Of a DNA stretch of 64,000 nt, positions 3,324 to 56,243 are shown in pieces. A program made the position numbers and the translations under genes. The notes under the pieces are model-generated. The model was not told the origin of the DNA, ran no database searches, and saw only the letters and a list, made by a program, of their open reading frames with translations. Location of the stretch: IMG/VR virus record IMGVR_UViG_3300021255_002251. The stretch is one strand, 5' to 3'. Each line of letters opens with the position of its first letter. Positions within the stretch are counted from its first letter, which is position 1. This DNA is from a virus (taxonomy: Duplodnaviria; Heunggongvirae; Uroviricota; Caudoviricetes).

Positions 3324-3902
3324 TTAGTTGCCCTTCATCGTCTGGTCTAGAAGCCCGATGTTAAGCAGACAGTTCTGCGAAATCTGGTCGAGTACCGCAA
3401 CCGTGCCAGACTTCAAATCAGGATAGTTGTTCTTGATAGCCTCAATCTTGTGCATTGTCTGCAGGCAGATGTTCATGAGGCCACCAATGAAATACTTGTC
3501 GTCCGAAGGATACATCACCTCAATGCCTACCGCATTTGCACATACTTCCTTCATCCGAGGAGGTGTGATTCCCCTCTCGCCCATGAAGTAGATTTCGGCT
3601 ATCTTGTCGGTCTCGTCGGCGAGCTGCCAAGTGAGATCGCCTAACTGGTGAAGCCCATAGAAAGCCTTGCCCTTGCACCGATAGTGCATATCCTTTGCGC
3701 ACATCCCGATGCACTTCAGATAAGCCATAAGGTCGGTCATCTCCGCATCGGGGAAGGCAGGAGCAGGTGGAATTGCCTCAATGGGTGGGGTAAGCCCCAC
3801 GGGTGCGACAGGCGCTTCTGGCGCAACAACTATCGTCTCCACTGCTGCGGGGGATTCTCCGAGCAGATAACCAGCCAAATCAGTCTTGATGTTGTCAGGC
3901 AT
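3324..3902 (-). CDS. hypothetical protein
   Basis: 192-aa ORF in the minus-strand gene train; Pro/Ala-rich N-terminus. Confidence 0.4.
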   Translation of the reverse strand: MPDNIKTDLAGYLLGESPAAVETIVVAPEAPVAPVGLTPPIEAIPPAPAFPDAEMTDLMAYLKCIGMCAKDMHYRCKGKAFYGLHQLGDLTWQLADETDKIAEIYFMGERGITPPRMKEVCANAVGIEVMYPSDDKYFIGGLMNICLQTMHKIEAIKNNYPDLKSGTVAVLDQISQNCLLNIGLLDQTMKGN

Positions 3903-42650: not shown

Positions 42651-44507
42651 CTATGCCACCTTTTCAAACTTGTTTATTGGGAACGATCGAATAAGATTCA
42701 CTATGCCCTTTGCCGTTGCAGTATGCAGAACCTTTATCGCATTGACAACAATTGCGACATCTTCCCCATCCTTCCCTATCCTTATGAGAAGCCGTATCAG
42801 ATAGTCATGCCATAGCTGTCTCGCAAAATACAACATCCGTATTTTGTCTGAGACAGTAGAGAAGTCTGACGAGTCGAAGTTAGACATTATCGTTATGAAT
42901 GCCTTGTATTCATCTGTAGACAACGATTCTACGGATTCCCTAATGCTATCAGTCTCACCTTCCTTATAGGACAATATGCTCTTTACAATCTTCCTAGAAG
43001 TGTTGGAACCGATGATTTCGATTGGAATCAATTTGTCCAAGCAAGACTTGATGGTTGCATCACCCTTCTTATTGAGAAGGAAGTTTATCAAAGCCCCTTC
43101 GGTTACAGAAGGAGGGGCATTCACATCGGCGGCATTACCAGCGACAATCGGCTCTATGAGCTGTTCCGCCGATTTGCTCTGGTCTTCCTCTTCTGCCTTC
43201 GTTGTCTTGGCTATCTCACTAGCCAAGGTAGAATACTCTACTCCTAATCGTTTTGCCGCCTCCTTAAGAAGCAATGAACGATGTACCTTGTCTTTGCATT
43301 TCGCTATAGTCTCTAGTACGGCTCTAGTAATCCTCACAGCGGCATTTGTCTCATCTGGATTCTGCTCCGCTGCTCTCGCCGCTCTTATCTGGAACTGAAC
43401 GATAGATTCAGCATTGGAAGCAATGAGGTTTGAAAAGGAGTCCTTCCCATGTTTCAAGATATAGGAATCTGGATCGTCTCCATCTGGAAGGGCCAACACT
43501 CTGATTGGCATACCCTCGGCAAGAAGCAACTGTGCGGCTTTTATCGTTGCCTTGTGCCCTGCTCCATCGTCGTCGAAACATAGAAGGGCATTGTCGGCAA
43601 CCCTATGGAGCATAACGGCATGGTCTTCCGTGAATGCCGTTCCCAATGGAGCAATAGCCGTATTGAACCCATTTGCATGAAGCCGTATGCAATCTATCTG
43701 CCCCTCACATATTATCGCTTCTCTGTTCGGAGCCTTCACGATGTTCTTGCGGGCTTCGTCGAATGCAAAGAATGTTCTTGATTTTTTGAATATCATCGTC
43801 TCTGGCGAGTTGACGTACTTCCCGCTTTTCTTGTCTTCAACCAACTGGCGTCCAGAAAAAGCTACCACCTGCCCATTCTTATCCTTGATTGCGAACACGA
43901 GACGATTTGCGAAATAGAAATATGGTGGACGGATTGCAGAGCCGCTAACCTTTATAATTCCTGCTGCCGCGAGGTCTTTATATGAGTATCCGTGTCTCCC
44001 AGCCCATGCTAGAATTTTATCTACCTCTTTTGGGGCATATCCTATGAGGAACTTGTCAACAATGGTTGCATCTAGTTCCCGCCCCTTAATATATTCTCTA
44101 GCCAGGTCTGCATCTTTGCATCGTGTAGACTTGAGCATCTTGTTAAAGTCTAAGGCCAGCTCCGACATGATTGCATAGAGCCGTTTTCTAGTCTTCACTG
44201 CTGGATTTTCTGCTGCATGAAGTTCTATCCCGACAGATGATGCGAGCTTCCGTATCGCATCTCCAAAAGAAAGCCCCTCCTGCTTCATCACAAAAGAGAA
44301 CACATCTCCACTCTCACCGCAGCCGAAGCAGTGGTATGTGCCACGTGTCACATCTACCTTGAAACTAGGGGTCTTTTCGTTGTGAAATGGGCAGCAGCAC
44401 CAAAGTTCGCTTCCTCTTGGCTTTAAAGAGAATCCATAAGAGGATATGAGGTCGGCTATGTCAACCTTTGCTTTTACCTCTTCCTTCTGTTCTTCTGAAA
44501 TAGCCAT
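42651..44507 (-). CDS. DNA primase (DnaG-like: CHC2 zinc finger plus TOPRIM)
   Basis: CCCPFHNEKTPSF...YHCFGCGESGD zinc-binding domain. TOPRIM ICEGQIDCIRL...LCFDDDGAGHKATIKA. Confidence 0.85.
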   Translation of the reverse strand: MAISEEQKEEVKAKVDIADLISSYGFSLKPRGSELWCCCPFHNEKTPSFKVDVTRGTYHCFGCGESGDVFSFVMKQEGLSFGDAIRKLASSVGIELHAAENPAVKTRKRLYAIMSELALDFNKMLKSTRCKDADLAREYIKGRELDATIVDKFLIGYAPKEVDKILAWAGRHGYSYKDLAAAGIIKVSGSAIRPPYFYFANRLVFAIKDKNGQVVAFSGRQLVEDKKSGKYVNSPETMIFKKSRTFFAFDEARKNIVKAPNREAIICEGQIDCIRLHANGFNTAIAPLGTAFTEDHAVMLHRVADNALLCFDDDGAGHKATIKAAQLLLAEGMPIRVLALPDGDDPDSYILKHGKDSFSNLIASNAESIVQFQIRAARAAEQNPDETNAAVRITRAVLETIAKCKDKVHRSLLLKEAAKRLGVEYSTLASEIAKTTKAEEEDQSKSAEQLIEPIVAGNAADVNAPPSVTEGALINFLLNKKGDATIKSCLDKLIPIEIIGSNTSRKIVKSILSYKEGETDSIRESVESLSTDEYKAFITIMSNFDSSDFSTVSDKIRMLYFARQLWHDYLIRLLIRIGKDGEDVAIVVNAIKVLHTATAKGIVNLIRSFPINKFEKVA

Positions 44508-45355
44508 TACCCCGCCACCTTGTCCTTTCCTGTCGGGAAGGGCTCATTAAACGACATCTCCCTTATGCAGCCTGGGTTCAGTTCTAGCAATTTTATCTTA
44601 TATGCGATATTGTATTCTTCGTTCACTCGGGACACGTTCCACATATTGACTATTGAGTTTTCAAGACTCGTATGTAGCGTGGTGCATCTATGGTCTCCGC
44701 TATGAATGTGTCCGAAAATAACCATTCTTGGAGCTCTCGCATCTATCACCCTAGCTAGGCTATTGCTCCCGAAGTGGCGGCGATATTTAGTAGGATAGTC
44801 TAGACTCATGTCAGCCTCATGATACTTCATTAGAGGCGGAGAATGTGTTATGAGAACATCAACTCTTGCTGGCATCTGCAAGAACCTGTCTGCAAGGTCT
44901 TCATCATCAGCTTCAAAGCACCATCTTCCGTTTATGTATGGCACCCACGGAGTCCCATAGAACCTAATGCCTTTTATCGTCACTTCCTCATCAATCAGAA
45001 GATGGAAGTTCTTTGGAACACGCGAGTATTCTCCTCTCTTGATTGCTTCATACTTGCTAGACAGATAGAAGTCGTGATTGCCAGGAATCGCTACCACTTC
45101 ACAATTTAGTTTCGATATAAGCGGAAAGAACTTGCGCTCAAACCAGTATGGCTTGCTTGTGAAAAGGTCTGCGGGTTCTATGTCACCAGCTATTACAAGT
45201 ATGTCAACATTTCTCGAAAAGCATACTTCTTGTATGCCCTCTACGTGACCATGGATATCGCTAGTTGCAGCGAGTACAAGCGGCTTTCCTATTCTTTCAA
45301 ACATGATCCTTGAATCTCCCCATTGCCAAGTCTCCACCAATCTTAAGACGGGCAA
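44507..45355 (-). CDS. calcineurin-like metallophosphoesterase (second copy)
   Basis: TSDIHGH, GDI, GNHD, GHIHSGDH motifs. Confidence 0.8.
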   Translation of the reverse strand: MPVLRLVETWQWGDSRIMFERIGKPLVLAATSDIHGHVEGIQEVCFSRNVDILVIAGDIEPADLFTSKPYWFERKFFPLISKLNCEVVAIPGNHDFYLSSKYEAIKRGEYSRVPKNFHLLIDEEVTIKGIRFYGTPWVPYINGRWCFEADDEDLADRFLQMPARVDVLITHSPPLMKYHEADMSLDYPTKYRRHFGSNSLARVIDARAPRMVIFGHIHSGDHRCTTLHTSLENSIVNMWNVSRVNEEYNIAYKIKLLELNPGCIREMSFNEPFPTGKDKVAG

Positions 45356-45664: not shown

Positions 45665-45700
45665 ATTATACCACAGAATTGGTATAGCTGTAAAGGGGGG
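45665..45700 (-). promoter_or_regulatory. sigma70-type promoter: GGGGGG, TTTACA (45689-45694), 18 nt, TGTGGTATAAT (45665-45670)
   Basis: Minus strand reads CCCCCCCTTTACAGCTATACCAATTCTGTGGTATAAT. Confidence 0.55.
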
Positions 45701-46440
45701 TGACAATAATTGGACGTTGAATTTTTTAGATGTGAGGCGGTATCCTTCCTATTAGACGAGGCTACCCTTTCGGGTAGCATGGTGGGACTCGAACCCACAT
45801 CTCCGCCTATAAATTGAATCGGCCGCCGTAGGTGCAATTAGACGATAGCAAGCCGAAAAACCATCATCCGTCTCCGAAAAGGAATCAACATATTTATTCA
45901 CCGATTAAAACGGTTGCACCGATGAATGGAAAAAGAAATGGAGCGGGGCTACCGATACGGTTTCGGGTGAGCTCACCCTACCTCCGCAGCCTATGACAGG
46001 GTCGGCTAGTTTTTTTTCCGAATACCGCCTCCCGCTCGGAAACCCCAGAACTCAACACTCTGGATTAAGTGGTAGTCTGGCACCCCACAATGGACACGGG
46101 AGTGTGTGTAGAAAAGGTGTTTTACCATTGTTAAACTATGGGATCGATACTATCTAGCCCCACGGGAGACCTCGAACCTCCATCTCCTTATCTACACGAA
46201 AAAACCTTCTGCCAAGACTCTTGATTCATGTCAATTAATAGTCCATCGCTCACTTGGCAGAAAAAGATTTCGCTAGTCTGCCTAACATCTGCAGCACCAG
46301 AGTAGAGTTGTGTAGACTAGGAGTTTTGCTCTCCGCATCCTAGCGAAAAATGGTAGCGGAAGTGGGAAGTGCGCCCAACGTGCCTTTCGGCTCTGGCTTA
46401 TGAGACCAGTGACTTTGACTTCTAGTCTATTCCGCAATCT
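45701..46440. other. 740-nt ORF-free region with a tRNA-like T-arm (45781-45798), a GCTACCC-GAAA-GGGTAGC hairpin (45761-45778) and a TTCCTATTA motif (45745-45753)
   Basis: No ORF of 60 aa or more on either strand. GGTGGGACTCGAACCCAC is the reverse complement of a canonical T-arm, but no cloverleaf could be completed. Confidence 0.3.
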
Positions 46441-46443
46441 AAA

Positions 46444-46824
46444 TCAACTAAACACTAAAAAGAGACAGTGCATCAACGAAGCGATATGTCCCCTCAATAC
46501 CTTCTCCTGCGACAAGGTTGCATTGTTGTTGTCTTTCTGCACTTCCTTGAACTTGTTCTGAACGCATCTATGAAACACGGGACTTGCGATGCACTCTTCT
46601 ATCGCCTTTGGAGACAGAACCTTTTCCATCCGTTTTCTAAATGCTTCCTTGACCTTATGCTCAAAAACCTCTTCCGTGACATTAACCTTCGAGAAACTAG
46701 ACGGCTTCACAACGGCTGCAGCCGTGTAGTCCTCATCCTCAAGTCCAGGCATGTAAGGCTCATCTGCAAGGAAAAGTTCAAGTTCACTCTTGTCTTCTTT
46801 GTTCGCCATAGCAAAAAATGCCAT
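46444..46824 (-). CDS. hypothetical protein
   Basis: 126-aa ORF. Confidence 0.3.
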   Translation of the reverse strand: MAFFAMANKEDKSELELFLADEPYMPGLEDEDYTAAAVVKPSSFSKVNVTEEVFEHKVKEAFRKRMEKVLSPKAIEECIASPVFHRCVQNKFKEVQKDNNNATLSQEKVLRGHIASLMHCLFLVFS

Positions 46825-46859
46825 AACGGAAATATGGCCACTGGGGAAAGGATTTGAGC

Positions 46860-47845
46860 TCTTCCTTCTCCCTTATTGCCGTGACATTTGCAATGACCGC
46901 CGCATGCGAAGGTTGCCCCCGCTCTAAATCGGGTTACTGTTCGATTTACATGCTTATCGTAGGCTCTTATCCTCCTGCTGCGCTGACAGAGGAAAGGAAG
47001 TTCGCCAATTGTGCTCATGAGCGGAAATCAAGAAATCTTCCGTGCATCCGACTGGACTACCGGCAGGTGCCATGTTTCAGGGCTAGCCAATAGCTACGAG
47101 GACTTCCCCAGTCTATTCCTAGAAGTGCGCTCTCTCCTAGATTATCACATTGATTGTTTCGGAACGGACGCTGGTCTTCTAAACTCGGGCCGAACTGAAA
47201 TGGGTTTTCGCCATGGCAAGTCACCCACTATGGCCGTATTAACAGCCTCGTCATCCAGTCCTATCCGCCAAGGTTTTACTCCCTCTCTGCACGGAAGAAA
47301 AAGGTTAAGTCTATCCCTCTTGCGGAGAGCTTTAGCAGCCGTATTTTCCCGATGCCTCGGTACTGCTACTCACGGTCAAAGACAGTGACAGTGGCCTCTT
47401 TTGGGGTCGCATGATTTCGCCTTTCAAGGCTACCCTTTGGCTATCAGCATCTTTTATGGTTTCCCAATCCTGTGTGCTGACTTAGGAGGTTCTCCGGAAC
47501 CACGAGAGCCCATTCCTTTCCTTTGCCGAGGAGGTCGATGGGAACGACCTAGCAAGGTGAATAAGTCTATGTCAACGAAGATTTTCGCATTAGCTACTCT
47601 ACTCTTCGCCAACTCTTGCCTCATGGGATTCTTTGTGAACACGGACTCCCAATCACCGACATTCCGTAAGACAGACGGAACACCCTTCGCATCCTGGGTT
47701 TACTCCGAGGAAGGATTTTCTTCGCCTCGGTCGATTCACAGTCAAATAGCACATGTCGGGAATCGAACCCAATCAAGCACCGTCGTGCGAGCCCATCGGC
47801 CCCGTGGAACCTACCACGCCTATGTGCTAAAAACTTTCAGTACCT
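46860..47845 (-). other. about 1 kb without credible ORFs; candidate structured RNA region
   Basis: Only short, unsupported ORFs in any frame. Contains a tRNA-like element (47749-47828) and RNase-P-like sequence strings; see findings. Confidence 0.3.
47749..47828 (-). ncRNA. tRNA-like element with canonical acceptor, D and T arms but a non-canonical anticodon region
   Basis: Acceptor GCACATA / CATGTGC, D-arm CGTGG-TAGGTT-CCACG, T-arm TTGGG-TTCGATT-CCCGA. A 31-nt segment replaces the anticodon arm. Confidence 0.3.
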
Positions 47846-47847
47846 TC

Positions 47848-49773
47848 CTACTTCGCAAGCAGGTTGATGAGAGTATCCTTCTCAAGATTCGTGAAGTCAA
47901 TGTCTGGCTTCTCTTCAGAATCCTTGTCCAGAACCTCAAACCCCGCACGATAGAGGATTTCCTTCAGCCCGATGAAGCACTTTGCTTTCTTCTTTAGACC
48001 TTCAATGATGACTGGGGCATACTTGCCGGTTGAAACACGGCGATTGCCAGTCCCCATCTGCATCAAGTAGAAGCGATTATCGAGCATCATACCGATAGTC
48101 ATCTGCCGCCCAGTCTCATCAGCCTCATGTTCCATCATGGTATCAAACCGAATGTTGTTCGGGTCTACCATGTGGTTCTTCATGTGTTTAACATCAAGGC
48201 ACTCATTGGCGAAGAAGAAGCGGAACTTAGACTTAGGCTCACCCCAATACTGGTTCACCATCACAATTCCGTCAGGAGCATCGTTCCTCATGAAGAGGAG
48301 TTCGACAGCCTCTGGATTCGCATTGGTGATGTCACCAGAGTAGATTACAGAGTTGTTGTCTCCGTTCCTATCCCCATTGTACCATGACGAGTTCCATCCG
48401 ATACGATTTCCGCGCAGGTCGGTCATCGAGAGATCGTAGTCCCTCGTTCCCCATTCATTCCGCCAGTAGATACCAACAACGTTGTTCTTCGTCATCCCAA
48501 AAGAAGTCCCGTAGGGGAAGTTCCCAACGAAATTCTTCTCCGATGTCGGAAGGACAAGTTCGTAATGCTCCGGCAGACGCACCTTGCAAGCCTTGACCTT
48601 GATGGACTCACAAAGAGATTCCTCAAGGAGGAAGTAGAGCCTAGCAATCCAGTTCTTGTCGTACTTCGGGGAATACTGCTCACGGACGAACTGCTTACCA
48701 TTCCTGATGGTGAACACACCTGTTGTTGTCGGGAAGCCCATCCGCTCCTTGCATAGCATCATAAGACGAACCTTGCGGAAGTTGTCAAGTTCGCCAAGGC
48801 GCTTCTTGACATCTTCCACCGGCTGCGGTTCCTTAATGATGTTCTCCCAGAACCCAATCTTGAAAGGCTTGTGATTCTTATCCGCAAGACGGCGGAGACG
48901 ATTCACGATTCCAGAGACCTTCCTATCTTTCTTCTCTCCTCCCTTCATGGCGAGGAAGATTGGCTTGAAGCGCAGGAATATACGCGATAGCCGCTCAATC
49001 TGCTTGTCGGAGAGATTGAGAAGAGGAGACCGAAATCCGCTCTCTTCTGCCTTCTTCTTGATTGTCGCAATCGTAGCACGGCTCTTGATGAGCGCAGGCT
49101 TCCCAACGTAAGCAAGTGCAATGCAACGAAGCATGCCGAACTCATCTGCAGGAAGAATGTTCATCTTCTGAGAGAGGTAAGCCATAGCTTCCTTGTTCTT
49201 CACAAGCGAAAGGGCCTCCGACAAATCACTCTTCTTCCAATCAATGCCATGTACTCTGGTCTCATACCAGAAGTCGCACATGACCTTCATCGTGCCCTCC
49301 TTGAGGGCGATGCCTGCCTTGAGAACTTCAAAACACTTGCCAGCCATCTCATCGTTCGTGATAGGCTCAATGACCTTGAGGTCTTCAAAGCGAGGAACCA
49401 TGCCTCCGTCGTTCGGAGTCCATCCGTTACCATCAATCTCCTTCCCATCCAGCATCTTACCGTATGTGGAGGCATAGTGCCTAATCTGGTCGAGGAAAAT
49501 CTCAAACCGAGACTTTGAAATCACATCATTCCACTCCTTGTAGAATGTTGCATTGTAGTTTGCGGTAAGGGTGTCAAGCCACTCATCCACAAACCTGTTG
49601 CAGCATTCCGGGCTGATGATATAGCCCAACTTAACCGCCTTCTTGTTGATTGCGGCAAAGTCACGATTGTCGTTCTTGTCCGATGCGACCAACCCCTTCT
49701 TGAAGTAGTCGATCAGTGCAGTGTGCATTTGCATTGTCGTTTTCCTTTTGGTTGTTTTTGTTGTTTTTAACAT
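47848..49773 (-). CDS. hypothetical protein (641 aa)
   Basis: Long ORF immediately downstream (in transcript order) of the tRNA array. No Walker motifs, so it is not called a terminase. Confidence 0.5.
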   Translation of the reverse strand: MLKTTKTTKRKTTMQMHTALIDYFKKGLVASDKNDNRDFAAINKKAVKLGYIISPECCNRFVDEWLDTLTANYNATFYKEWNDVISKSRFEIFLDQIRHYASTYGKMLDGKEIDGNGWTPNDGGMVPRFEDLKVIEPITNDEMAGKCFEVLKAGIALKEGTMKVMCDFWYETRVHGIDWKKSDLSEALSLVKNKEAMAYLSQKMNILPADEFGMLRCIALAYVGKPALIKSRATIATIKKKAEESGFRSPLLNLSDKQIERLSRIFLRFKPIFLAMKGGEKKDRKVSGIVNRLRRLADKNHKPFKIGFWENIIKEPQPVEDVKKRLGELDNFRKVRLMMLCKERMGFPTTTGVFTIRNGKQFVREQYSPKYDKNWIARLYFLLEESLCESIKVKACKVRLPEHYELVLPTSEKNFVGNFPYGTSFGMTKNNVVGIYWRNEWGTRDYDLSMTDLRGNRIGWNSSWYNGDRNGDNNSVIYSGDITNANPEAVELLFMRNDAPDGIVMVNQYWGEPKSKFRFFFANECLDVKHMKNHMVDPNNIRFDTMMEHEADETGRQMTIGMMLDNRFYLMQMGTGNRRVSTGKYAPVIIEGLKKKAKCFIGLKEILYRAGFEVLDKDSEEKPDIDFTNLEKDTLINLLAK

Positions 49774-49944
49774 AGGCGGGGTGTACTAGCATCTCCCAAG
49801 AAGGTGGAAGAGACATAGGAACACCGGCTGCCCAAAGAAGAGAAAAGGAGCGGGAAGTATTTTCATTGATTAACAGTCAAGTGCCCAAAGGGCTTAATAG
49901 GAACTTCCTATGCTCAAAAAACCGTGTGCGATGTGTATGTCTAG

Positions 49945-50018
49945 TCAATCGCTCTACCACCTGAGCTACACGAACAGCTAAGCCGTCCATGGCAGGACTC
50001 GAACCCGCGACTAATTGA
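49945..50018 (-). ncRNA. permuted tRNA-like unit 1: 3' half (T-arm 49992-50008, acceptor-3' 49985-49991), 9-nt linker, 5' half (acceptor-5' 49969-49975, D-arm 49950-49968)
   Basis: In the minus-strand RNA the order is TCAAT-TAGTC-GCGGGTTCGAGTCCTGC-CATGGAC-G-GCTTAGCT-GTTCGTG-TA-GCTCAGGTGGTAGAGC-G-ATTGA. The acceptor strands pair 7/7 (GTTCGTG with CATGGAC, including G-U pairs) and the anticodon-stem halves pair 5/5 (ATTGA with TCAAT), but only in permuted order. Confidence 0.35.
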
Positions 50019-50264
50019 TTTCAGAAATAGGAACACAATATGCACACCTATGGTAAACGGCGAGAAGTATCTGAACCGAAAGAAGCCTGTGGCTTCTTGA
50101 TGGAGTCGAACCATCAAGTAATAGGAACTTCCTATGCCGTAAAATCAACAGAGACGGAGAGTAAATGACACATGGTTGTTGCCACGTGCTTCGTTCGCAG
50201 CGAATGATAGGAACTCTCGATGTCTCTAAAATGAACATGAAAACGAAAAGCGGCGGAATGTATT

Positions 50265-50338
50265 ATAAGGCGCTCTACCACTGAGCTAAATGGAGGCATA
50301 AGCCATCCACTACGGGATTCGAACCCGCGACCTCCTGC
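50265..50338 (-). ncRNA. permuted tRNA-like unit 2 (same 3' half, 9-nt linker, 5' half architecture)
   Basis: CCCGT-AGTGGAT-GGCTTATGC-CTCCATT-TA-GCTCAGTGGTAGAGCG. The acceptor pairs 6/7; the linker has the same length and the same GGCTTA start as unit 1. Confidence 0.3.
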
Positions 50339-50568
50339 TTACCAGGCATTAATAGGAACATTCTTTGCCGCAAAAAGAGATTTGTGCGAGTAGTATGGAT
50401 TTCATGGTGGAGGCTTATGCCGCGCCCCCAAGCGGTTAATAGGAACTACCTCTGCACAAAGAAATAAAAAGGGCGGAGAGTATCTTTCATCCAAAGAAAA
50501 ATAGGAACCCTCTTTGCCCAAAAATAGTTTTCAATTCATACGCCCCACTCGAGGGACGACCTAAACGA

Positions 50569-50641
50569 TGAAACCAGATGGACTCGAACCACCTCCTTCC
50601 AACGATTAATTGGAAATGCTTTCCTGTTACACCATGGTTTC
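50569..50641 (-). ncRNA. tRNA-like gene with an unusual anticodon loop (UUAAUCG) and no encoded CCA
   Basis: Acceptor GAAACCA / TGGTTTC pairs 7/7. T-arm GGTGG-TTCGAGT-CCATC. The anticodon stem TCCAA/TTGGA encloses TTAATCG, which has a pyrimidine at position 37; the anticodon assignment is ambiguous. Confidence 0.35.
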
Positions 50642-50867
50642 ACGTGGGAACTTTCCGAGTACCCAAAACTCCTGTTCCTTTGCGATACATGCGGTCTCTG
50701 ATATCTCCCAAGCCGAGCTTCCAGAAACAACTTGTAAACACCCATCGCATGAACAGCCTATCTCTTCAGTGGACCGTCACCGGATTAGCACCGTGCTGCC
50801 AGACCTATCGTTGCATGCTTGATTAGCACCCCTTGTACTTCGGGGCCGAACAGCCTGACTCTAAAGA

Positions 50868-50942
50868 TGGAGCAAGATGCCGAACTCGCATCGGCGTAAA
50901 CTACCTTGGAAGGGTAGCGCATAACTTCTCTGCCAATCTTGC
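50868..50942 (-). tRNA. tRNA-Gly(TCC)
   Basis: Cloverleaf by hand. Acceptor GCAAGAT/ATCTTGC, anticodon arm CTACC-CTTCCAA-GGTAG, T-arm GCCGA-TGCGAGT-TCGGC, CCA encoded. Confidence 0.7.
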
Positions 50943-50947
50943 AAAAA

Positions 50948-51022
50948 TGGAGCGAACTACGGGATTCGAACCCATGACCTCATCCTTGGCAAGGATACGT
51001 ACTACCACTGTACTAAGTCCGC
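50948..51022 (-). tRNA. tRNA-Gly(GCC)
   Basis: Acceptor GCGGACT/AGTTCGC (G4-U69), anticodon loop TTGCCAA, T-arm ATGGG-TTCGAAT-CCCGT, CCA encoded. Confidence 0.8.
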
Positions 51023-51113
51023 ATTTGCCCCTTATCCCACCACTTTCAGCGGGGGCTACCTCGTTTCCTCATATAGACCGACAGAGCGGGACTCCGGCGG
51101 AGAGGCTTCTAAA

Positions 51114-51189
51114 TGGAGCGACAGATGGGTTACGATCCCACGACATCAACCTTGGGAAGGTTGCACTCTACCAACTGAGTTACTGTCGC
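51114..51189 (-). tRNA. tRNA-Gly(CCC)
   Basis: Acceptor GCGACAG/CTGTCGC, anticodon arm CAACC-TTCCCAA-GGTTG, CCA encoded. Confidence 0.8.
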
Positions 51190-51196
51190 ATGAAAT

Positions 51197-51276
51197 TGGT
51201 GGAACCGATGGGAGTCGAACCCACTATTTGTCTGCTTGCAAAGCAGATGCCTTTACCACACTCGAGCCACGGCCCC
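51197..51276 (-). tRNA. tRNA-Ala(TGC)
   Basis: Acceptor GGGGCCG/CGGTTCC with G3-U70, anticodon arm TCTGC-TTTGCAA-GCAGA, CCA encoded. Confidence 0.75.
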
Positions 51277-51587
51277 ATTGAAAATGTTTACCAGCGGTTC
51301 TCAGATGCTTTTAGTTTTGTGGTATCGCATCCACAAACTTCAACCGCAGTCATAGCATCATTAGGCTCTTGGATTCGATAGGCATACATCCCATTCGGGC
51401 ATCGCTACCGTTCATGCCTAAAGTTTGGTTCTGCCTTACACGTTTCCTGCAAGGTGGAATCCAATGGTATGCAGAATTTAGCCTTTTGAGCCTATCTGCG
51501 TCTCGCCGCAATGTGAAATCCATCACTACAATGAGGAGCGACATCAAGGTCGGGACTCTTGTTGTTTGAACTAATACCATCAGAAAT

Positions 51588-51661
51588 TGGTGGACACGTT
51601 GAGAATCGAACTCAAGTCTTCTCGTTGCGAACGAGATGTTCTACCACTGAACTAGCGGCCC
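51588..51661 (-). tRNA. tRNA-Ala(CGC)-like; acceptor stem imperfect
   Basis: D-arm, anticodon arm TCTCG-TTCGCAA-CGAGA and T-arm TTGAG-TTCGATT-CTCAA are canonical. G3-U70 is present, but the 5' GGGCCGC versus 3' CGTGTCC strands leave three mismatches at positions 5-7. Confidence 0.45.
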
Positions 51662-51804
51662 ATGAAAATAAAGGACGATTGTCAAGAAGGACATCGTATT
51701 TCCATTAATGCCCATCACGTTTTCTTTCCCCAACTATTCACCCCAACGAAATCATTGGAATTGGGAAATGATAAACACTGATTTTGTCACAACCGCCATG
51801 GAAA

Positions 51805-51878
51805 TGGTGGACACGGCAGGAATTGAACCTGCATCTCTTCTCTGCCAGAGAAGCATTCTACCGTTGAACTATCGGCCC
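51805..51878 (-). tRNA. tRNA-Ala(GGC)-like; acceptor stem imperfect
   Basis: Anticodon arm CTTCT-CTGGCAG-AGAAG, T-arm GCAGG-TTCAATT-CCTGC, G3-U70 present. 5' GGGCCGA versus 3' CGTGTCC gives the same mismatch pattern as the Ala(CGC) gene. Confidence 0.45.
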
Positions 51879-51891
51879 ATTGAAATCGTTT

Positions 51892-51968
51892 TGGTGGACC
51901 CTGTAGGGAACGATCCTACAACCGTCTGGGTATGGGCCAGATGCTCTAACCAATTGAGCTAAGGGTCC
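51892..51968 (-). tRNA. tRNA-Met/Ile2(CAT), elongator type
   Basis: Acceptor GGACCCT/AGGGTCC (G1-C72 paired), anticodon loop CCCATAC, CCA encoded. Confidence 0.8.
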
Positions 51969-51973
51969 GAAAT

Positions 51974-52051
51974 TGGTCGGAGTGGAGGGATTCGAACCCC
52001 CGACGTTCTGCTCCCAAAGCAGACGCTCTGGCCAGGCTGAGCTACACTCCG
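51974..52051 (-). tRNA. tRNA-Pro(TGG)
   Basis: Acceptor CGGAGTG/CACTCCG, anticodon arm TCTGC-TTTGGGA-GCAGA, CCA encoded. Confidence 0.8.
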
Positions 52052-52056
52052 CTTGA

Positions 52057-52128
52057 AGCCCCCTGTCGGAAACGAACCGACGACCTCCATCTTACCAAGA
52101 TGGCATTCTACCACTGAACTAAGGGGGC
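52057..52128 (-). tRNA. tRNA-Thr(GGT)
   Basis: Acceptor GCCCCCT/AGGGGGC, anticodon arm CCATC-TTGGTAA-GATGG, no encoded CCA. Confidence 0.8.
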
Positions 52129-52131
52129 GTC

Positions 52132-52206
52132 TGGAGCCCCCGCCTAGACTCGAACTAGGAAATCCACTGTACGAAAGTGGCGGTTTTCCATTACACCTAC
52201 GGAGGC
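52132..52206 (-). tRNA. tRNA-Thr(CGT)
   Basis: Acceptor GCCTCCG/CGGGGGC (one G-U pair), anticodon arm CCACT-TTCGTAC-AGTGG, CCA encoded. Confidence 0.75.
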
Positions 52207-52214
52207 AAGTCTCA

Positions 52215-52302
52215 TGGAGCCAAGGAGCGGATTTGAACCGCTGTGTCCTTTCGGAGCGGGTGTACAAAACCCGTGCAATCAGCCAGACTATGCGACCTTG
52301 GC
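52215..52302 (-). tRNA. 88-nt tRNA with long variable arm (type-II-like) and apparent anticodon TGT (Thr)
   Basis: Acceptor GCCAAGG/CCTTGGC. A perfect anticodon stem CGGGT/ACCCG encloses TTTGTAC. A 14-nt extra arm CTCCGAAAGGACAC follows. T-arm AGCGG-TTCAAAT-CCGCT, CCA encoded. Confidence 0.5.
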
Positions 52303-52307
52303 AAAAT

Positions 52308-52382
52308 TGGCGGGGCTAGCGGTAATCGAAACCACATCAGTAGCTTAGAAGGCAACTGCTCTATCCGTTGAGCTATAGCCCC
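52308..52382 (-). tRNA. tRNA-Arg(TCT)
   Basis: Acceptor GGGGCTA/TAGCCCC, anticodon loop CTTCTAA, CCA encoded. Confidence 0.75.
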
Positions 52383-52391
52383 TCTTTGAAA

Positions 52392-52468
52392 TGGTGCGGG
52401 AGACTGGAATCGAACCAGCAACCTACAGTTTAGGAAACTGCCGCTCTGTCCGATTGAGCTACACCCGC
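52392..52468 (-). tRNA. tRNA-Arg(CCT)
   Basis: Acceptor GCGGGTG/CTCCCGC (one U-U mismatch), anticodon arm GCAGT-TTCCTAA-ACTGT, CCA encoded. Confidence 0.75.
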
Positions 52469-52470
52469 AT

Positions 52471-52548
52471 TGGTGAGGCTAGTGAGAATCGAACTCACAC
52501 AAGTCCTACCTTCGGAGGGTAGCGCTCTCTCCATTGAGCTATAGCCTC
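52471..52548 (-). tRNA. tRNA-Arg(CCG)
   Basis: Acceptor GAGGCTA/TAGCCTC, anticodon arm CTACC-CTCCGAA-GGTAG, CCA encoded. Confidence 0.8.
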
Positions 52549-52551
52549 TTC

Positions 52552-52627
52552 TGGTAGGGACGGACGGAATCGAACCGCCGACATATTCCGTGTAAAGGAA
52601 TCGCTCTGCCACCTGAGCTACATCCCC
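52552..52627 (-). tRNA. tRNA-Val(TAC)
   Basis: Acceptor GGGGATG/CGTCCCT (two G-U pairs), anticodon arm ATTCC-TTTACAC-GGAAT, CCA encoded. First gene of the array downstream of promoter 53101-53139. Confidence 0.8.
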
Positions 52628-53100
52628 GATTTAAAACACTTGTGGGCTTCCTCCGCCAAGATTCACCTCACAATCATGGGAGGCTACTTCCCAGCAGACT
52701 CACACCCACTCTACCCGTTAGACTGATTAGGAATCGGGCAGCAAACAGAATAGAGCGGTAGTACGGTTGGCTCTTTTCCAGAGTATCACTCTGGCAGTCT
52801 GCGCTTCACACACCGCTCCCCCAACCTAACTGATTAGGTAAGATTGGGAAATCGAAGTCTTTTGCCACTATTCTTGGCCCCTGGTTAAACTCCTTCAAAG
52901 ACATAGAAGGAAGGTCTTTATGTGGTACGGCCGATGTTACTCTGCCGATTGCTCCACAGAAACTTGTGGTAGCCGTGGGGACTCAAACCAACCCCATTCG
53001 GCGGCTACAGAAATTCAACGTCCAATTGTCAAAGAACCATTAGGAGGAATCTCTTTCTTGCCCATCTAGGTTCATGGCCTTGTTCCTCGAAACGCAGTAT

Positions 53101-53139
53101 AGTATACCATACAGTCAGTTGGCTTTCAATGGGGTGTAG
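53101..53139 (-). promoter_or_regulatory. sigma70-type promoter of the tRNA array: GGGGTGTAG box, TTGAAA (53124-53129), 17 nt, TGGTATACT (53101-53106)
   Basis: Minus strand reads CTACACCCCATTGAAAGCCAACTGACTGTATGGTATACT. About 470 nt of ORF-free leader precede tRNA-Val. Confidence 0.55.
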
Positions 53140-54140: not shown

Positions 54141-56243
54141 CTACCCTCTAGGAGGAAGTTGTGGTTGTGCCTGAGGAACTTGTTGCGGCTGCTGGGCCTG
54201 TGCTTGAGGTTGTTGCCCCTGCTGTACCTGTGGCTGCTGCTCGGCTGGTGCTGGTACTTCCTGCCCAGTCTTCTTAAGGAAGTCCCTCATCACGCTCTTG
54301 AAAATTTCGTCGTTCTTCTGGACTTCTGGCGGCAGTTCTGGTGGAGGCTGTTCTCCTCCCTGACCAGGGATCCCGCCTCCCATGCCGCCGTCCATCCCTC
54401 CCGGCATTCCGGGCATTCCTCCTTGTTGGGCTGATGGGTCTTTTGCTTCCTCTATCTTGGTGAGGATTTCTGGAATGTCTGTCGGAATCGTCTGGAAAGC
54501 TGGGAGATTCGTCTTGCGGAGCATCGCACGACCTTCCGCAATGTCAATGAGTCCGGTATTGATAAGGTGAGCAACATACTGTGCCGTCTGCGAACTCATC
54601 TGTGCAACTTCGGACTCCTTCGGAACGTCGATAGGATTCCATTCTATGTCTAACTTCATGTCATCCTTGTCTGGATAGTTCGACGCACAATAAAGTTCGT
54701 AGAACATCTTGCACAAAGGAGTATAGTCGTTATTCTGGATAGCCTTTAGAGATTGGGCATAGTCGTCCCATTCGTATTGTCCTGTTGCCTGCAAGCCAGA
54801 AGGAACGTTTTTCAGCAACTTAGTGACAGGAATCTGTGCAATGGCAGCAACCAACTGATACTGCGACATCGTAAGAGGTGTGAGTTCCGACAGGTTCGTA
54901 TCCAACTGCGTCACGTTCGAAGACGGCTTCTTCACGAATATGGAGAAGTTGTCGCGGAAGAAGTTTATGGCATTGAAGAACTTGTTTGTACGGGCTGGGT
55001 CTGACTGCAACTGCTCAAGGTTTCCGTCTGCAATCAAAAGCCTCTTTGTCATTGCTAGGAGCGGTGCTTCATTAGCCAGTTTGTCCGCGGCCCACACTCT
55101 TTCATAAATCATCTGCGTCAAAGACAGTCCGCCATAGAGATACACCGGCTTGAAGATGTCAGGCAACTCGGAGTTTATTTTCCTTATAACCCAAGAGCGG
55201 TGGACTCTCTCTTCTCCTACCTTTATCCATGTAGGCTCTAGGAAGTGCGGTGAGAGTGGATTGGTTCGGCTGTCCTTGTCCCACTGGTAAGTAAGCCAGT
55301 GAGGGTCTATGACTGCAAAACCTTTGAACGAACCTGGTTTTATGGCTTTAGGATCGTAAGGGTCTGCATAGCTATATGGGGTTTTACCTGACTTGTCTGA
55401 TGGAGATCTATAATCATCCCTAAACTTCACCCATGGGATTGCGACACCAACGCCAAACACCTTCTTCTTGTAGTTTAGACGAATACATGCTTCGTTCAAC
55501 CCCATCCTATCGGCGGCTTTCTTAATCTCCGTCAGGAAATCTGCTTCCGCAGCATCATGCTCGTTGCTATGTTCATGCTTTGTAGATGAGCAGACGACCT
55601 TGTAACCATGTGCCATGGCATCTTCTGCAGGAATCATGCAGGCACGATTCACAAACTCATGTGTTGCTATGATTGCGCATCCCGTATATGTAATCCAAAT
55701 ACGAGATTGGAAGTGCTTGAGAACTCTTGGATTTATCGGGAAGCGTAGAAGAGGGTCTGGAAGCATCGCAAATCCGCCACCCTCTAACCCAGCATGAAGC
55801 CCCTGCCGTGGCGGATAACATCTCTGAGAACTTCTCGGAACGGCTCCCGGAAGATTTCCGCTTATGTTTCTCGGAAGAACGGACGGCTTTCCCGTAGGCA
55901 CACCATCTCCCTTTCCTCCAGTAACATCGTCCATCGTTGGGACGCTCATATCAACCATGTCGGTTTTTATGGGGAATGGGTCAACACCATCCTGTACCGC
56001 CTTGAAGAAGTCTGTAAGTCTGACTGGAAACAACTTGTCGATTGCCTCGGTGTACTCCTCATCCGTCATGGCGGATTCATCCATTACAGGGAACTCTCCA
56101 GAACCAGAATCAGGAGAGAACCCTATGCCGTCCTCGATAGCCTTCCTCATCTTCTGGATAGCAGATGGCTCACCCTCCGACCTCCCATGCTTCTTGTATT
56201 TCGGCTGGTCTTTCTTGCTACCTTTATGGAATAATCCGAACAT
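54141..56243 (-). CDS. large virion-type protein, possibly the portal; C-terminal Gly/Pro/Gln-rich low-complexity tail
   Basis: 700 aa. The central region is of portal-like size and composition. The C-terminal GGMPGMPGGMDGGMGGG...QQPQAQAQQPQQ tail is low-complexity. The assignment is tentative. Confidence 0.4.
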   Translation of the reverse strand: MFGLFHKGSKKDQPKYKKHGRSEGEPSAIQKMRKAIEDGIGFSPDSGSGEFPVMDESAMTDEEYTEAIDKLFPVRLTDFFKAVQDGVDPFPIKTDMVDMSVPTMDDVTGGKGDGVPTGKPSVLPRNISGNLPGAVPRSSQRCYPPRQGLHAGLEGGGFAMLPDPLLRFPINPRVLKHFQSRIWITYTGCAIIATHEFVNRACMIPAEDAMAHGYKVVCSSTKHEHSNEHDAAEADFLTEIKKAADRMGLNEACIRLNYKKKVFGVGVAIPWVKFRDDYRSPSDKSGKTPYSYADPYDPKAIKPGSFKGFAVIDPHWLTYQWDKDSRTNPLSPHFLEPTWIKVGEERVHRSWVIRKINSELPDIFKPVYLYGGLSLTQMIYERVWAADKLANEAPLLAMTKRLLIADGNLEQLQSDPARTNKFFNAINFFRDNFSIFVKKPSSNVTQLDTNLSELTPLTMSQYQLVAAIAQIPVTKLLKNVPSGLQATGQYEWDDYAQSLKAIQNNDYTPLCKMFYELYCASNYPDKDDMKLDIEWNPIDVPKESEVAQMSSQTAQYVAHLINTGLIDIAEGRAMLRKTNLPAFQTIPTDIPEILTKIEEAKDPSAQQGGMPGMPGGMDGGMGGGIPGQGGEQPPPELPPEVQKNDEIFKSVMRDFLKKTGQEVPAPAEQQPQVQQGQQPQAQAQQPQQVPQAQPQLPPRG

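What the first reader, a model, noticed from the sequence alone, without database searches (positions are those of the whole stretch)
49895..50509. AATAGGAAC half-sites and full ATAGGAACTTCCTAT palindromes punctuate the tRNA-like region
Seven copies of AATAGGAAC occur in about 600 bp, two as a perfect 7+1+7 inverted repeat (49897-49911 and 50122-50136). Another copy in reverse orientation lies at 45745-45753, next to another tRNA-like T-arm. Each copy is followed about 6-8 nt later by a T/A-rich stretch ending in TGC(C/A). This looks like a dimeric DNA-binding-protein operator or a miniature repeat element that has inserted between or into tRNA genes. Alternatively, the 7-bp-stem hairpin could be an RNA processing signal in the array transcript.
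Basis: seen in the sequence. Interest (0 to 1): 0.55.

Follow-up and report, generated by a model that had tools for sequence, protein, structure and literature searches.

The report
Conserved RNA stem framing phage tRNA mimics
The repeated AATAGGAAC is the reverse complement of GUUCCUAU, the invariant core of a conserved RNA stem that closes eight small RNAs (two are tRNA look-alikes), and across large phages this stem always sits beside one uncharacterised 600-residue protein, which suggests an undescribed RNA-protein system resembling Y RNA and Ro60.

Summary
The motif cluster is real. ATAGGAAC occurs 8 times in 49815-50508, all on one strand, against about 2 expected in the whole window.

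It is not a DNA palindrome, operator, promoter or miniature transposon. Read on the minus strand, where the tRNAs and genes lie, each GUUCCUAU is the 5' half of a bipartite RNA "handle":

5'-[P1 ..xGC]-A(U/A)A-[P2 NNNNGU]-UCCUAU-insert-(A/U)U-[P2' ACNNNN]-C-[P1' GCy..]-3'

- **Covariation:** the variable N4 and the x/y bases covary. Of 128 units, 101 pair 4/4, and 0 of 5000 shuffles reach the observed total. P2 is 97.8% paired.
- **Inserts:** they run from 12 to about 190 nt. In the window they include two circularly permuted, YrlA-type tRNA mimics, a T-arm minihelix, an anticodon-stem-loop mimic and a hairpin followed by CCA.
- **Gene linkage:** handles lie on the same strand next to one uncharacterised protein family (helical N-terminal part plus TerD-fold C-terminal part; 1602 clusters at 50% identity). 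This holds in 51 of 69 loci, and 12 of 15 handles found without reference to the protein carry the gene beside them. The cultured cyanophage S-CRM01 (gene g174) has them too.
- **Prior description:** no Rfam family and no paper that I could find describes the handle.

The best reading is a Y-RNA-like scaffold RNA whose handle docks the neighbouring protein. That function is inferred, not shown.

The parts
50471..50519 (-). Handle RNA 1. P1 GGGC/GCCC, loop AAA vs C, P2 GAGGGU/ACUCUC, UCCUAU, 17-nt insert containing UUGGAU.
   Evidence: MFE fold recovers P1+P2, z -2.2. R1 hit of 42.9 bits.
50381..50460 (-). Handle RNA 2. P1 UUUGUGC/GCACAAA, P2 GGUAGU/ACUACU. The 42-nt insert is a 7-bp hairpin followed by CCA (acceptor-minihelix-like). 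Orthologous hairpin-ACCA inserts occur in L001 and L014.
50250..50371 (-). Handle RNA 3. P1 GCGGC/GCCGC, P2 GAAUGU/ACAUUC. The 88-nt insert is a circularly permuted tRNA-like domain: anticodon-like arm CC+UGC CUGGUAA GCAGG, T arm, acceptor-like stem closed by a loop, D arm.
   Evidence: ARAGORN finds a tRNA across the junction of the duplicated insert. Rfam YrlA 33.8 bits. Fold.
50149..50228 (-). Handle RNA 4. P1 UAGAGAC/GUCUCUG, where GAC/GUC is a compensatory variant of GGC/GCC. P2 GAGAGU/ACUCUC. The insert has two hairpins. The motif copy here is GATAGGAAC on the + strand.
   Evidence: z -4.2.
50057..50140 (-). Handle RNA 5. P1 ACGGC/GCCGU, P2 GGAAGU/ACUUCU. The insert is a T-arm-like minihelix (CUUGAUGG UUCGACU CCAUCAAG) plus a hairpin. 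It carries one of the two 'palindromes' (AUA + GGAAGU + UCCUAU).
   Evidence: z -4.0.
49924..50047 (-). Handle RNA 6. P1 GUGUGC/GCACAC, P2 UGUGU/ACACA. The 88-nt insert is a permuted tRNA-like domain with acceptor GUUCGUG/CAUGGAC closed by a loop, canonical D and T loops, and a GAA-containing internal loop.
   Evidence: Rfam YrlA 40.4 bits over the full model, below the gathering score of 69. ARAGORN on the duplicated insert. Fold.
49848..49915 (-). Handle RNA 7. P1 GAGC/GCUC, P2 GGAAGU/ACUUCC. The insert is a small hairpin plus an anticodon-stem-loop look-alike (UUGA CUGUUAA UCAA). It carries the second 'palindrome'.
   Evidence: R1 hit of 41.3 bits.
49773..49834 (-). Handle RNA 8. P1 UGGGC/GCCUA, P2 GGUGU/ACACC, 28-nt hairpin insert. 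This is the last RNA before the protein gene.
   Evidence: R1 hit of 28.9 bits.
47848..49734 (-). 628-aa protein gene immediately downstream of the RNA array, and the candidate partner of the handle. Helical N-terminal part plus TerD-fold C-terminal domain. No Pfam, PHROG or PDB sequence match.
   Evidence: Linkage to handles.
50567..52627 (-). Array of ordinary tRNA genes directly upstream on the same strand. It is probably one transcription unit with the handle RNAs.
53101..53129 (-). Sigma-70-like promoter (TTGAAA-17-TATACT with TG, 10/12) upstream of the tRNA array. It is the only strong consensus match on this strand in 47.7-53.3 kb.
   Evidence: This is a consensus match only.

Best explanation
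AATAGGAAC is the plus-strand image of GUUCCUAUU, the invariant core of a structured-RNA 'handle' made from the minus strand.

**Shown by sequence and covariation.** Each of eight small RNAs (49773-50519) closes on itself through two helices formed by its 5' and 3' ends:
- P1: 4-7 bp, ending xGC/GCy.
- P2: 6 bp, NNNNGU/ACNNNN.
- Between them sits an A-rich 3-nt loop opposite a single C.
- At the inner end, invariant unpaired UCCUA(U) and U flank a variable insert.

In this window the inserts are tRNA parts or whole tRNA look-alikes. Two are circularly permuted, YrlA-type tRNA mimics whose acceptor stem is capped by a loop. The others include a T-arm minihelix, an anticodon-stem-loop mimic and a hairpin followed by CCA.

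**Inferred.**
- The RNAs are co-transcribed with the tRNA array and the downstream 628-aa gene, then released at the U-rich spacers.
- The invariant handle is the docking site for that co-encoded protein (helical part plus TerD fold), giving a ribonucleoprotein. Its variable module would bind or titrate factors that recognise tRNA, as Y RNA does for Ro60.

**Confidence by step.** The RNA structure is about 0.95. The neighbouring protein as partner is about 0.5. A tRNA-mimic adaptor or decoy role is about 0.35.
For: **Structure**
- Cognate leader/trailer tetranucleotides pair 4/4 in 24 of 33 units, against 7% for non-cognate pairs.
- In an unbiased set of 128 units, 101 pair 4/4 and 21 pair 3/4. 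None of 5000 shuffles reached the observed total.
- On 106 handles, P2 is 97.8% paired and 4 of its 6 pairs show double changes. P1 inner pairs covary (GGC/GCC, GAC/GUC, AGC/GCU, CGC/GCG, UGC/GCA, AAC/GUU). The covariation score is 0.608, against 0.216 shuffled and at most 0.18 for slid registers.
- G-U pairs outnumber A-C 30 to 11, which fits this strand being the RNA.
- MFE folds of all 8 window RNAs recover P1 and P2.

**In the transcript, not a promoter**
- Consensus sigma-70 promoters sit just 5' of the first handle in L015, L017 and L006.
- An intrinsic terminator follows a 5-handle array in L058.

**tRNA mimicry**
- ARAGORN finds tRNAs across the junction of duplicated inserts in 11 of 27 long inserts.
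- Rfam YrlA matches at 40.4, 33.8 and 35.9 bits, the last in S-CRM01.

**Protein linkage**
- GTTCCTA lies on the gene strand within about 400 nt of the gene in most of 80 loci, down to 27% aa identity.
- Covariance model R1 gives 97 hits in 51 of 69 loci, all on the gene strand and adjacent to the gene.
- In the reverse direction, 12 of 15 pattern-found handles carry the gene, against 1 of 105 non-handles.
- Among 80 bacterial loci sharing the half-motif, only 1 is a true handle.
- The handle is kept nearly invariant while the protein falls to 22-30% identity.

**Precedent**
- YrlA Y RNAs have the same topology and lie next to their protein (PMC4201824).
Against: - No experimental data exist. 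Transcription, processing and protein binding are all inferred.
- Co-location could reflect cis-regulation of the gene rather than binding in trans.
- Some family loci (18 of 69) show no handle at E<=0.01. Several of these loci lack upstream sequence.
- In L001 and L014 one handle encloses a normal-order tRNA ending in CCA. That looks more like a processing cassette.
- The model R1 was built from many of the same loci it was then used to count, so those counts are partly circular. Strand and position are not affected.
Confidence: 0.55

Rival explanations
1. Processing or maturation cassette. The leader-trailer helix marks RNAs to be excised from the tRNA-array transcript by a host or phage RNase, as rRNA processing stems do. 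The permuted tRNA-like inserts are then cut by RNase P, CCA-added, and either used as two-piece tRNAs or ligated into functional tRNAs by the phage RNA ligase.
For: - The handle brackets every insert, including a normal-order tRNA ending ...CCA immediately before the trailer in L001 and L014.
- After removal of the handle, the exon ends of several permuted inserts would restore 5-bp anticodon stems and 7-nt loops (Thr CUGGUAA, Asn CUGUUAA, Val CUUACAC).
- An RNA ligase gene lies at 33472-34656.
Against: - Most handles (median insert 24 nt) enclose only an A/U-rich loop, with nothing to mature.
- The distance from the handle to the putative exon ends varies (3-14 nt), so there is no fixed cleavage geometry.
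- The permuted anticodons duplicate ordinary tRNAs already in the same arrays (Thr-GGU in the window, Val-UAC in L001).
- RNA6 would give a 6-nt anticodon loop.
- This reading does not explain the tight linkage to one protein family, unless that protein is the processing enzyme.
Confidence: 0.2
2. Cis-regulatory leader element. The hairpin is an operator or sensor in the mRNA of the adjacent gene, either for autoregulation by its product or for sequestering the ribosome-binding site through UUCCU pairing with AGGAA.
For: - In minimal loci a single handle lies between a consensus promoter and the RBS of the gene (L015, L017, L006).
- UUCCU is complementary to the AGGAA in the gene's RBS region.
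Against: - Arrays of up to 10 handles occur with different, orthologously conserved inserts.
- Arrays also lie downstream of the gene and are followed by a terminator (L058, L082, L089, L080, the S-CRM01 3' copy).
- tRNA-like inserts of 80-90 nt are hard to explain as an operator.
Confidence: 0.15
3. DNA-level site. Options are an operator for a dimeric DNA-binding protein (palindrome), a sigma-54-type -24/-12 promoter on the plus strand (GG-N10-GC), a phage-RNAP promoter on the minus strand, or a miniature mobile repeat.
For: - Two copies are perfect 7+1+7 palindromes.
- On the + strand, AGGAAC-N5-(A/U)UGC fits the GG-N10-GC spacing of sigma-54 promoters (by inspection).
Against: - Only 2 of 122 units are palindromic.
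- The supposed -12 'GC' and its neighbour covary with bases 30-200 nt away, which no promoter or operator model predicts.
- G-U exceeds A-C asymmetrically.
- Every copy has the orientation of the adjacent gene (97 of 97), so a plus-strand promoter would fire antisense into tRNA genes.
- Canonical promoters lie upstream of the first handle.
- There are no target-site duplications, and the element does not occur elsewhere in the 64-kb window.
Confidence: 0.03

Closest known systems
Bacterial and phage Y RNAs of the YrlA class with Ro60 (Rsr); Rfam RF02553; Chen et al. 2014, PMC4201824
   Same: - 5' and 3' ends pair into a two-helix stem with an internal loop that carries the protein-binding nucleotides.
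- The distal module is a tRNA mimic in the order V/T arm, acceptor-like stem-loop, D arm.
- One or several copies are encoded on the same strand within a few kb of the partner protein gene, often near tRNA or RNA-repair genes.
- The Rfam YrlA model aligns full-length to RNA6.
   Different: - Scores of 34-40 bits are far below the gathering score of 69.
- The handle consensus (xGC-AUA-NNNNGU-UCCUAU / AU-ACNNNN-C-GCy) is not the Ro60 motif GNCGAAN0-1G.
- The neighbouring protein is not TROVE+vWA. It is an unannotated helical + TerD-fold family.
- Most handles carry only a short loop instead of a tRNA-like module.
- Arrays reach 10 copies.
Circularly permuted tRNA genes (Cyanidioschyzon merolae, some green algae, Thermofilum) and split tRNAs (from my own knowledge; reviews found)
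   Same: - The 3' part of the tRNA lies upstream of the 5' part, joined by a short linker across the acceptor ends.
- Leader and trailer pair with each other.
   Different: - Those precursors form a bulge-helix-bulge motif (two 3-nt bulges 4 bp apart) cut by the splicing endonuclease and are ligated through a circular intermediate.
- Here the flanking helix has a 3-nt/1-nt internal loop and a 6-bp helix.
- The junction position and linker lengths vary.
- The same handle also encloses non-tRNA inserts.
- No bacterial or phage example is known to me.
Two-piece tmRNA from circularly permuted ssrA genes (Rfam RF04321 family class)
   Same: A bacterial precedent for a permuted tRNA-like domain whose acceptor loop is opened by RNase P and 3' processing, leaving a two-piece RNA.
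   Different: There is no mRNA-like domain here. The only weak Rfam hits to the permuted-tmRNA model fall on ordinary tandem tRNAs.
Type III toxin-antitoxin systems (ToxI RNA repeats with ToxN); from my own knowledge
   Same: A tandem array of structured RNA units is transcribed with, and lies next to, the gene of the protein that binds them.
   Different: - ToxI repeats are identical 36-nt units, cut by a ~170-aa endoRNase.
- Here the units differ in their inserts.
- The protein is ~600 aa with an unrelated fold.

Membership tests
YrlA / Y RNA (RF02553) | Score at or above Rfam's gathering threshold (69 bits) | tested here: not met
   40.4 bits (49920-50048) and 33.8 bits (50265-50336). 35.9 bits in S-CRM01. 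Tandem ordinary tRNAs give 24-28 bits.
YrlA / Y RNA (RF02553) | Ends pair into a stem, and the distal domain has T arm, acceptor-like stem-loop and D arm in that order | tested here: met
   Met for RNA3 and RNA6. Not met for the six other window RNAs, whose inserts are hairpins.
YrlA / Y RNA (RF02553) | Ro60-binding motif GNCGAAN0-1G near the 5' end (PMC4201824) | tested here: not met
   The handle has xGC-A(U/A)A-NNNNGU-UCCUAU. Only the G-C and a following A/U-rich loop are alike.
YrlA / Y RNA (RF02553) | Encoded next to a TROVE-domain (Ro60) gene | tested here: not met
YrlA / Y RNA (RF02553) | Bound by Ro60 in vivo | not testable with these tools
   Needs immunoprecipitation or EMSA.
Bulge-helix-bulge (BHB) splicing motif of permuted/split tRNA precursors | Two 3-nt bulges on opposite strands separated by a 4-bp helix, with splice sites in the bulges | tested here: not met
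   The handle has a 3-nt loop directly opposite a single C, then a 6-bp helix. Distances from the helix to the tRNA-like ends vary from 3 to 14 nt.
Circularly permuted tRNA gene | 3' part upstream of 5' part, with mutually pairing acceptor strands and canonical D and T loops | tested here: met
   RNA3, RNA6, and L001, L003, L014, L073, L087 and S-CRM01 examples.
Circularly permuted tRNA gene | Matures into a contiguous, aminoacylatable tRNA | not testable with these tools
   Needs RNA end mapping and acylation assays. RNA6 would have a 6-nt anticodon loop.
Sigma-54 (-24/-12) promoter, plus strand | GG-N10-GC spacing with TGGCAC-N5-TTGC-like sequence | tested here: inconclusive
   The spacing fits and the sequence fits partly (AGGAAC-N5-WUGC). 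But the 'GC' element covaries with distant bases as an RNA pair.
Sigma-54 (-24/-12) promoter, plus strand | Directs transcription of downstream genes on its strand | tested here: not met
   All genes and tRNAs are on the opposite strand. 97 of 97 handles share the strand of the adjacent gene.
Palindromic operator for a dimeric DNA-binding protein | Inverted-repeat symmetry conserved among copies | tested here: not met
   2 of 122 units carry the full palindrome and 11 of 122 carry 5-bp arms.
Miniature mobile repeat (MITE-like) | Dispersed copies with terminal inverted repeats and target-site duplications | tested here: not met
   Copies exist only in the array next to one gene family. The paired segments differ between copies and covary.

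The most novel reading that the evidence does not exclude
A widespread, previously undescribed phage ribonucleoprotein system. Modular scaffold RNAs (the invariant handle plus an exchangeable module) are bound by a dedicated helical/TerD-fold protein. Their modules display whole-tRNA, T-arm, anticodon-loop or acceptor-CCA mimics. These would decoy or recruit host tRNA-recognising enzymes, for example anticodon nucleases and other tRNA-targeting defences, RNase P, or CCA-adding and modification enzymes. This would be an analogue of Ro60/Y RNA evolved around a different protein.
Probability: 0.35. Interest if true: 0.9.

Novelty: new variant of a known kind. Interest (0 to 1): 0.78.

Why it matters
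- Phage tRNA arrays are usually read as codon-usage or anti-defence tRNA supplies, and the 'broken tRNA' stretches next to them are ignored or annotated as pseudogenes.
- Here those stretches resolve into a strongly covarying RNA family, absent from Rfam 15.
- The family is tied to a large protein family with no annotation (about 1600 clusters at 50% identity) in jumbo phages from gut, rumen and aquatic samples, and in the cultured cyanophage S-CRM01.
- This gives a concrete, testable candidate for a second Y-RNA-like RNP, with tRNA mimicry at its centre.
- It assigns a likely function (RNA binding) to an orphan protein family.
- It provides a search model for annotating these RNAs.
- It also warns that circularly permuted tRNA-like genes exist in phages.

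Tried and rejected
- **Close DNA relatives:** none among 50,697 deposited phages (megablast found none; blastn matched only tRNAs).
- **Promoter reading:** first considered (T7-like or sigma-70 on the minus strand, sigma-54 on the plus strand). Dropped after finding consensus promoters upstream of the first handle and leader-trailer covariation.
- **Small-peptide reading:** ATGAAA occurs before three units, but the frames differ relative to the conserved motif (inspection).
- **Intron in tandem tRNAs** (5' half, intron, 3' half): rejected because the halves that pair belong to the same inter-unit segment in permuted order.
- **BHB motif:** the geometry does not fit.
- **Rfam:** no family matches the handle at gathering or E-value thresholds.
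- **Protein identity:**
  - Pfam, PHROGs and the PDB by sequence gave nothing.
  - Foldseek against the PDB gave nothing.
  - BFVD gave only uncharacterised phage proteins.
  - The afdb50 library was unavailable.
- **Half-motif scan of bacterial genomes:** almost only chance matches, 1 real handle in 80 loci. This is useful as a specificity control, not for host assignment.
- **First viral pattern scan**: 7 of 10 hits were chance.
- **Literature searches:** no description found of this RNA or protein, using permuted tRNA + phage, Y RNA/Ro60 + phage, YrlA + phage, jumbo phage ncRNA and S-CRM01 tRNA.
- **Metagenome scan:** not used.
Full report
**Observation**

The window is part of a large tailed phage. 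It carries a portal gene at 54141-56243, a DnaG primase at 42651-44507, anaerobic NrdD, RecT/YqaJ and an RNA ligase. Nearly all genes, and an array of ordinary tRNA genes (ARAGORN and Rfam each list 15) at 50567-52627, lie on the minus strand.

- The 9-mer AATAGGAAC occurs 6 times in 49896-50508. One unrelated copy sits in coding sequence at 10009. Expected by chance is 0.43.
- The 8-mer ATAGGAAC occurs 8 times in 49815-50508, all in one orientation. The window holds 14 against 1.96 expected.
- Only these 8 copies share flanking sequence.
- Both 15-nt palindromes exist.
- The supposed reverse copy at 45745 is a one-mismatch, chance-level match.

**Anatomy**

Read on the minus strand the motif is GUUCCUAU.
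- It is preceded by (G)GCA-(U/A)A-N4.
- A second conserved block, (A/U)U-AC-N4-CGC(C), follows 20-100 nt downstream.
- The N4 before GUUCCUAU is complementary to the N4 of the next downstream block. Examples are GAAUGU/ACAUUC, GAGAGU/ACUCUC, GGUAGU/ACUACU and GGAAGU/ACUUCC.
- The base before GC pairs with the base after GC in the trailer (GGC/GCC, GAC/GUC, UGC/GCA, AGC/GCU).

Each unit is therefore an RNA whose two ends pair:

P1 (4-7 bp) - loop A(U/A)A opposite a single C - P2 (6 bp) - unpaired UCCUAU - insert - (A/U)U - P2' - C - P1'

Minimum-energy folds of all eight RNAs recover P1 and P2, with z-scores from -1.7 to -4.2.

**Relatives and statistics**

The downstream 628-aa protein led to relatives.
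- Three close viral contigs, one a 252-kb genome, carry 10, 10 and 4 units in the same place.
- A motif scan found a 269-kb AT-rich phage with two units in front of a 22%-identical full-length homologue of the same protein.
- The protein family is large and unannotated: at least 1261 hits, and 1602 clusters at 50% identity.
- In 80 loci retrieved through the protein, GTTCCTA lies on the gene's strand within about 400 nt upstream in most loci, and just downstream in a few.

Covariation tests:
- In the first set of 33 units, 24 cognate pairs are 4/4, against 7% of non-cognate pairs. None of 20000 permutations reached the observed total.
- Taking simply the first TAC-N4-CGY after each motif gives 128 units, of which 101 pair 4/4 and 21 pair 3/4. 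The observed paired total is 477 against a shuffled mean of 311, and none of 5000 shuffles reached it.
- On an ungapped alignment of 106 handles, P2 is 97.8% paired and 4 of its 6 pairs show changes on both sides. The other two pairs are invariant G-C and U-A.
- The five inner P1 pairs covary. The covariation score is 0.608, against 0.216 shuffled and at most 0.18 when the partner is slid.
- G-U pairs outnumber A-C mismatches 30 to 11, as expected if this strand is the RNA.
- Invariant unpaired bases are the A's of the internal loop, the opposite C, UCCUA after P2, and U before P2'.

**Not a DNA site**

- Only 2 of 122 units are fully palindromic, and both are in this window. The palindrome arises when N4 is GGAA after AUA.
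- Perfect or near-perfect sigma-70 promoters sit immediately 5' of the first handle in L015 (TTGACA-17-TATAAT), L017 and L006.
- A five-handle array in L058 lies 3' of the gene and ends in an intrinsic terminator.
- In the window, the only strong promoter-like site on the minus strand lies upstream of the tRNA array, at 53129-53101.
- The plus-strand resemblance to a sigma-54 promoter (GG-N10-GC) is explained away, because that 'GC' is an RNA base pair that covaries.

**Inserts**

Insert length runs from 12 to about 190 nt, with a median of 24. Short inserts are A/U-rich loops, often containing UUGGAU (15 observed against 1.7 expected). The window's inserts are:

| RNA | Insert |
|---|---|
| RNA1 | 17-nt loop |
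| RNA2 | Hairpin followed by CCA |
| RNA3 | 88-nt permuted tRNA-like domain |
| RNA4 | Two hairpins |
| RNA5 | T-arm-like minihelix plus hairpin |
| RNA6 | 88-nt permuted tRNA-like domain |
| RNA7 | Hairpin plus anticodon-stem-loop look-alike (CUGUUAA) |
| RNA8 | Hairpin |

- In RNA3 and RNA6 the order is anticodon-side strand, variable region, T arm, acceptor 3' strand, 5-8-nt loop, acceptor 5' strand, D arm. The D loops (A14, G18G19) and T loops (UUCGAAU, UUCGAGU) are canonical.
- ARAGORN run on duplicated inserts finds a tRNA spanning the junction in 11 of 27 long inserts. These include loci whose protein is only about 30% identical.
- Rfam's YrlA model (Y RNA-like) aligns full-length to RNA6 at 40.4 bits and to RNA3 at 33.8 bits. 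Both are below its 69-bit threshold but above the 24-28 bits that tandem tRNAs give.
- YrlA RNAs have exactly this topology: a protein-binding stem formed by the ends plus a V/T/acceptor-like/D module. M. smegmatis YrlA is cut by RNase P and CCA-added (PMC4201824).

**Specificity and distribution**

- A covariance model of the handle (R1) hits only the short-insert handles in the 64-kb window and nothing else.
- It gives 97 hits in 51 of 69 family loci, all on the gene strand and adjacent to the gene.
- It gives 1 hit in 80 bacterial loci pre-selected for the half-motif.
- It finds handles where the literal motif is absent. These include the cultured cyanophage S-CRM01, on both sides of gene g174, and the gut phage Phass-1.
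- S-CRM01 has about five handles upstream of g174 and one downstream, inside its tRNA cluster. One has a YrlA-like insert at 35.9 bits.
- In the reverse direction, 120 viral loci matched a loose protein-independent pattern. The 15 with complementary N4 and GGC/GCC carry the family gene in 12 cases. The other 105 carry it in 1 case.

**The protein**

- The AF2 model has mean pLDDT 81.6, with a helical part at about 120-380 and a beta sandwich at about 410-560.
- Foldseek against the PDB, hmmsearch against the PDB, Pfam and PHROGs give nothing.
- BFVD shows full-length uncharacterised relatives, for example in Campylobacter virus IBB35.
- It is not detectably TROVE/Ro60.

**Interpretation**

Shown:
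- the motif is the core of a covarying RNA stem on the minus strand;
- that stem brackets variable inserts, including tRNA mimics;
- it is genomically coupled, in both directions, to one protein family across very distant phages with different hosts.

Inferred:
- The handle is that protein's binding site. The unpaired invariant bases stay fixed while the protein diverges to 22-30% identity and the hosts range from cyanobacteria to gut anaerobes. That points to a co-inherited partner rather than a lineage-specific host RNase.
- The inserts act as adaptors or decoys for factors that recognise tRNA.

Rivals:
- a processing or maturation cassette for permuted tRNAs, supported by the normal-order tRNA-CCA enclosed by a handle in L001 and L014;
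- a cis-regulatory leader, supported by single copies between promoter and RBS.

I found no description of this RNA or protein in Rfam 15 or in the searchable literature.

Noticed in passing
window 45700-47850 (-): About 2.1 kb directly downstream of the 628-aa gene has no convincing ORF. It holds several T-arm-like pieces, a weak tRNA hit at 46354-46436 (33 bits) and a tRNA-Sec-like hit at 47748-47828 (23 bits). There are no handle hits. L014 has a similar 1.7-kb gene-free stretch after its homologue. This may be further structured RNA.
   Followed up: partly
window 50643-50867, 51023-51113, 51277-51587, 51661-51807, 52628-53100 (-): Gene-free, tRNA-free gaps lie inside and at the head of the tRNA array. 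The sequence looks structured, and no Rfam family matches even at E<=1.
   Followed up: partly
window 51808-51878 (-) and 50567-50642 (-): Rfam finds a tRNA at 51808-51878 (49 bits) that ARAGORN did not list. ARAGORN's tRNA-Ile at 50567-50642 has the unusual anticodon AAU and was missed by Rfam at the gathering threshold in the whole-window scan.
   Followed up: no
L001 5132-5207; L014 about 3450-3530: A normal-order tRNA ending in CCA is enclosed by a handle. Its anticodon-position loop is the 6-nt AGGAAU, complementary to the handle's invariant UUCCU, so loop-loop pairing is possible. ARAGORN calls it a tRNA with a 4-base anticodon.
   Followed up: no
short inserts of handles in many loci (e.g. 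window 50485-50501, L070, L074, L077): UUGGAU is enriched in short inserts (15 against 1.7 expected), 6-11 nt from the 3' end. It could pair with UCCUA to form a small third helix in a subclass of handles.
   Followed up: partly
L098 2210-2356 (S-CRM01 g173c, NC_015569 132391-132537): This annotated 48-aa ORF on the opposite strand overlaps two handle RNAs. It is probably not a gene.
   Followed up: no
window 44507-45355 (-); L014 9190-; L015 7067-7639; L017 8055-8660: A calcineurin-like metallophosphoesterase gene recurs 2-4 kb downstream of the family gene, with DnaJ in L015 and L017. The window also encodes an RNA ligase at 33472-34656. This may indicate an RNA-end-healing context.
   Followed up: no
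window 50121-50134 and 49897-49910 (-): On the minus strand GGAAGTTCCTATTA matches 12 of the 13 nt of the FLP recombinase target arm GAAGTTCCTATTC as I recall it. Given the covariation this is a coincidence, but it could trigger false 'FRT/vector' flags.
   Followed up: no
window 24826-26136 (-), 9639-13739 (-): The window also holds an RRXRR + HNH endonuclease protein and a 1366-aa BspA-type leucine-rich-repeat protein. The latter, with anaerobic NrdD, hints at a gut or rumen anaerobe host.
   Followed up: no
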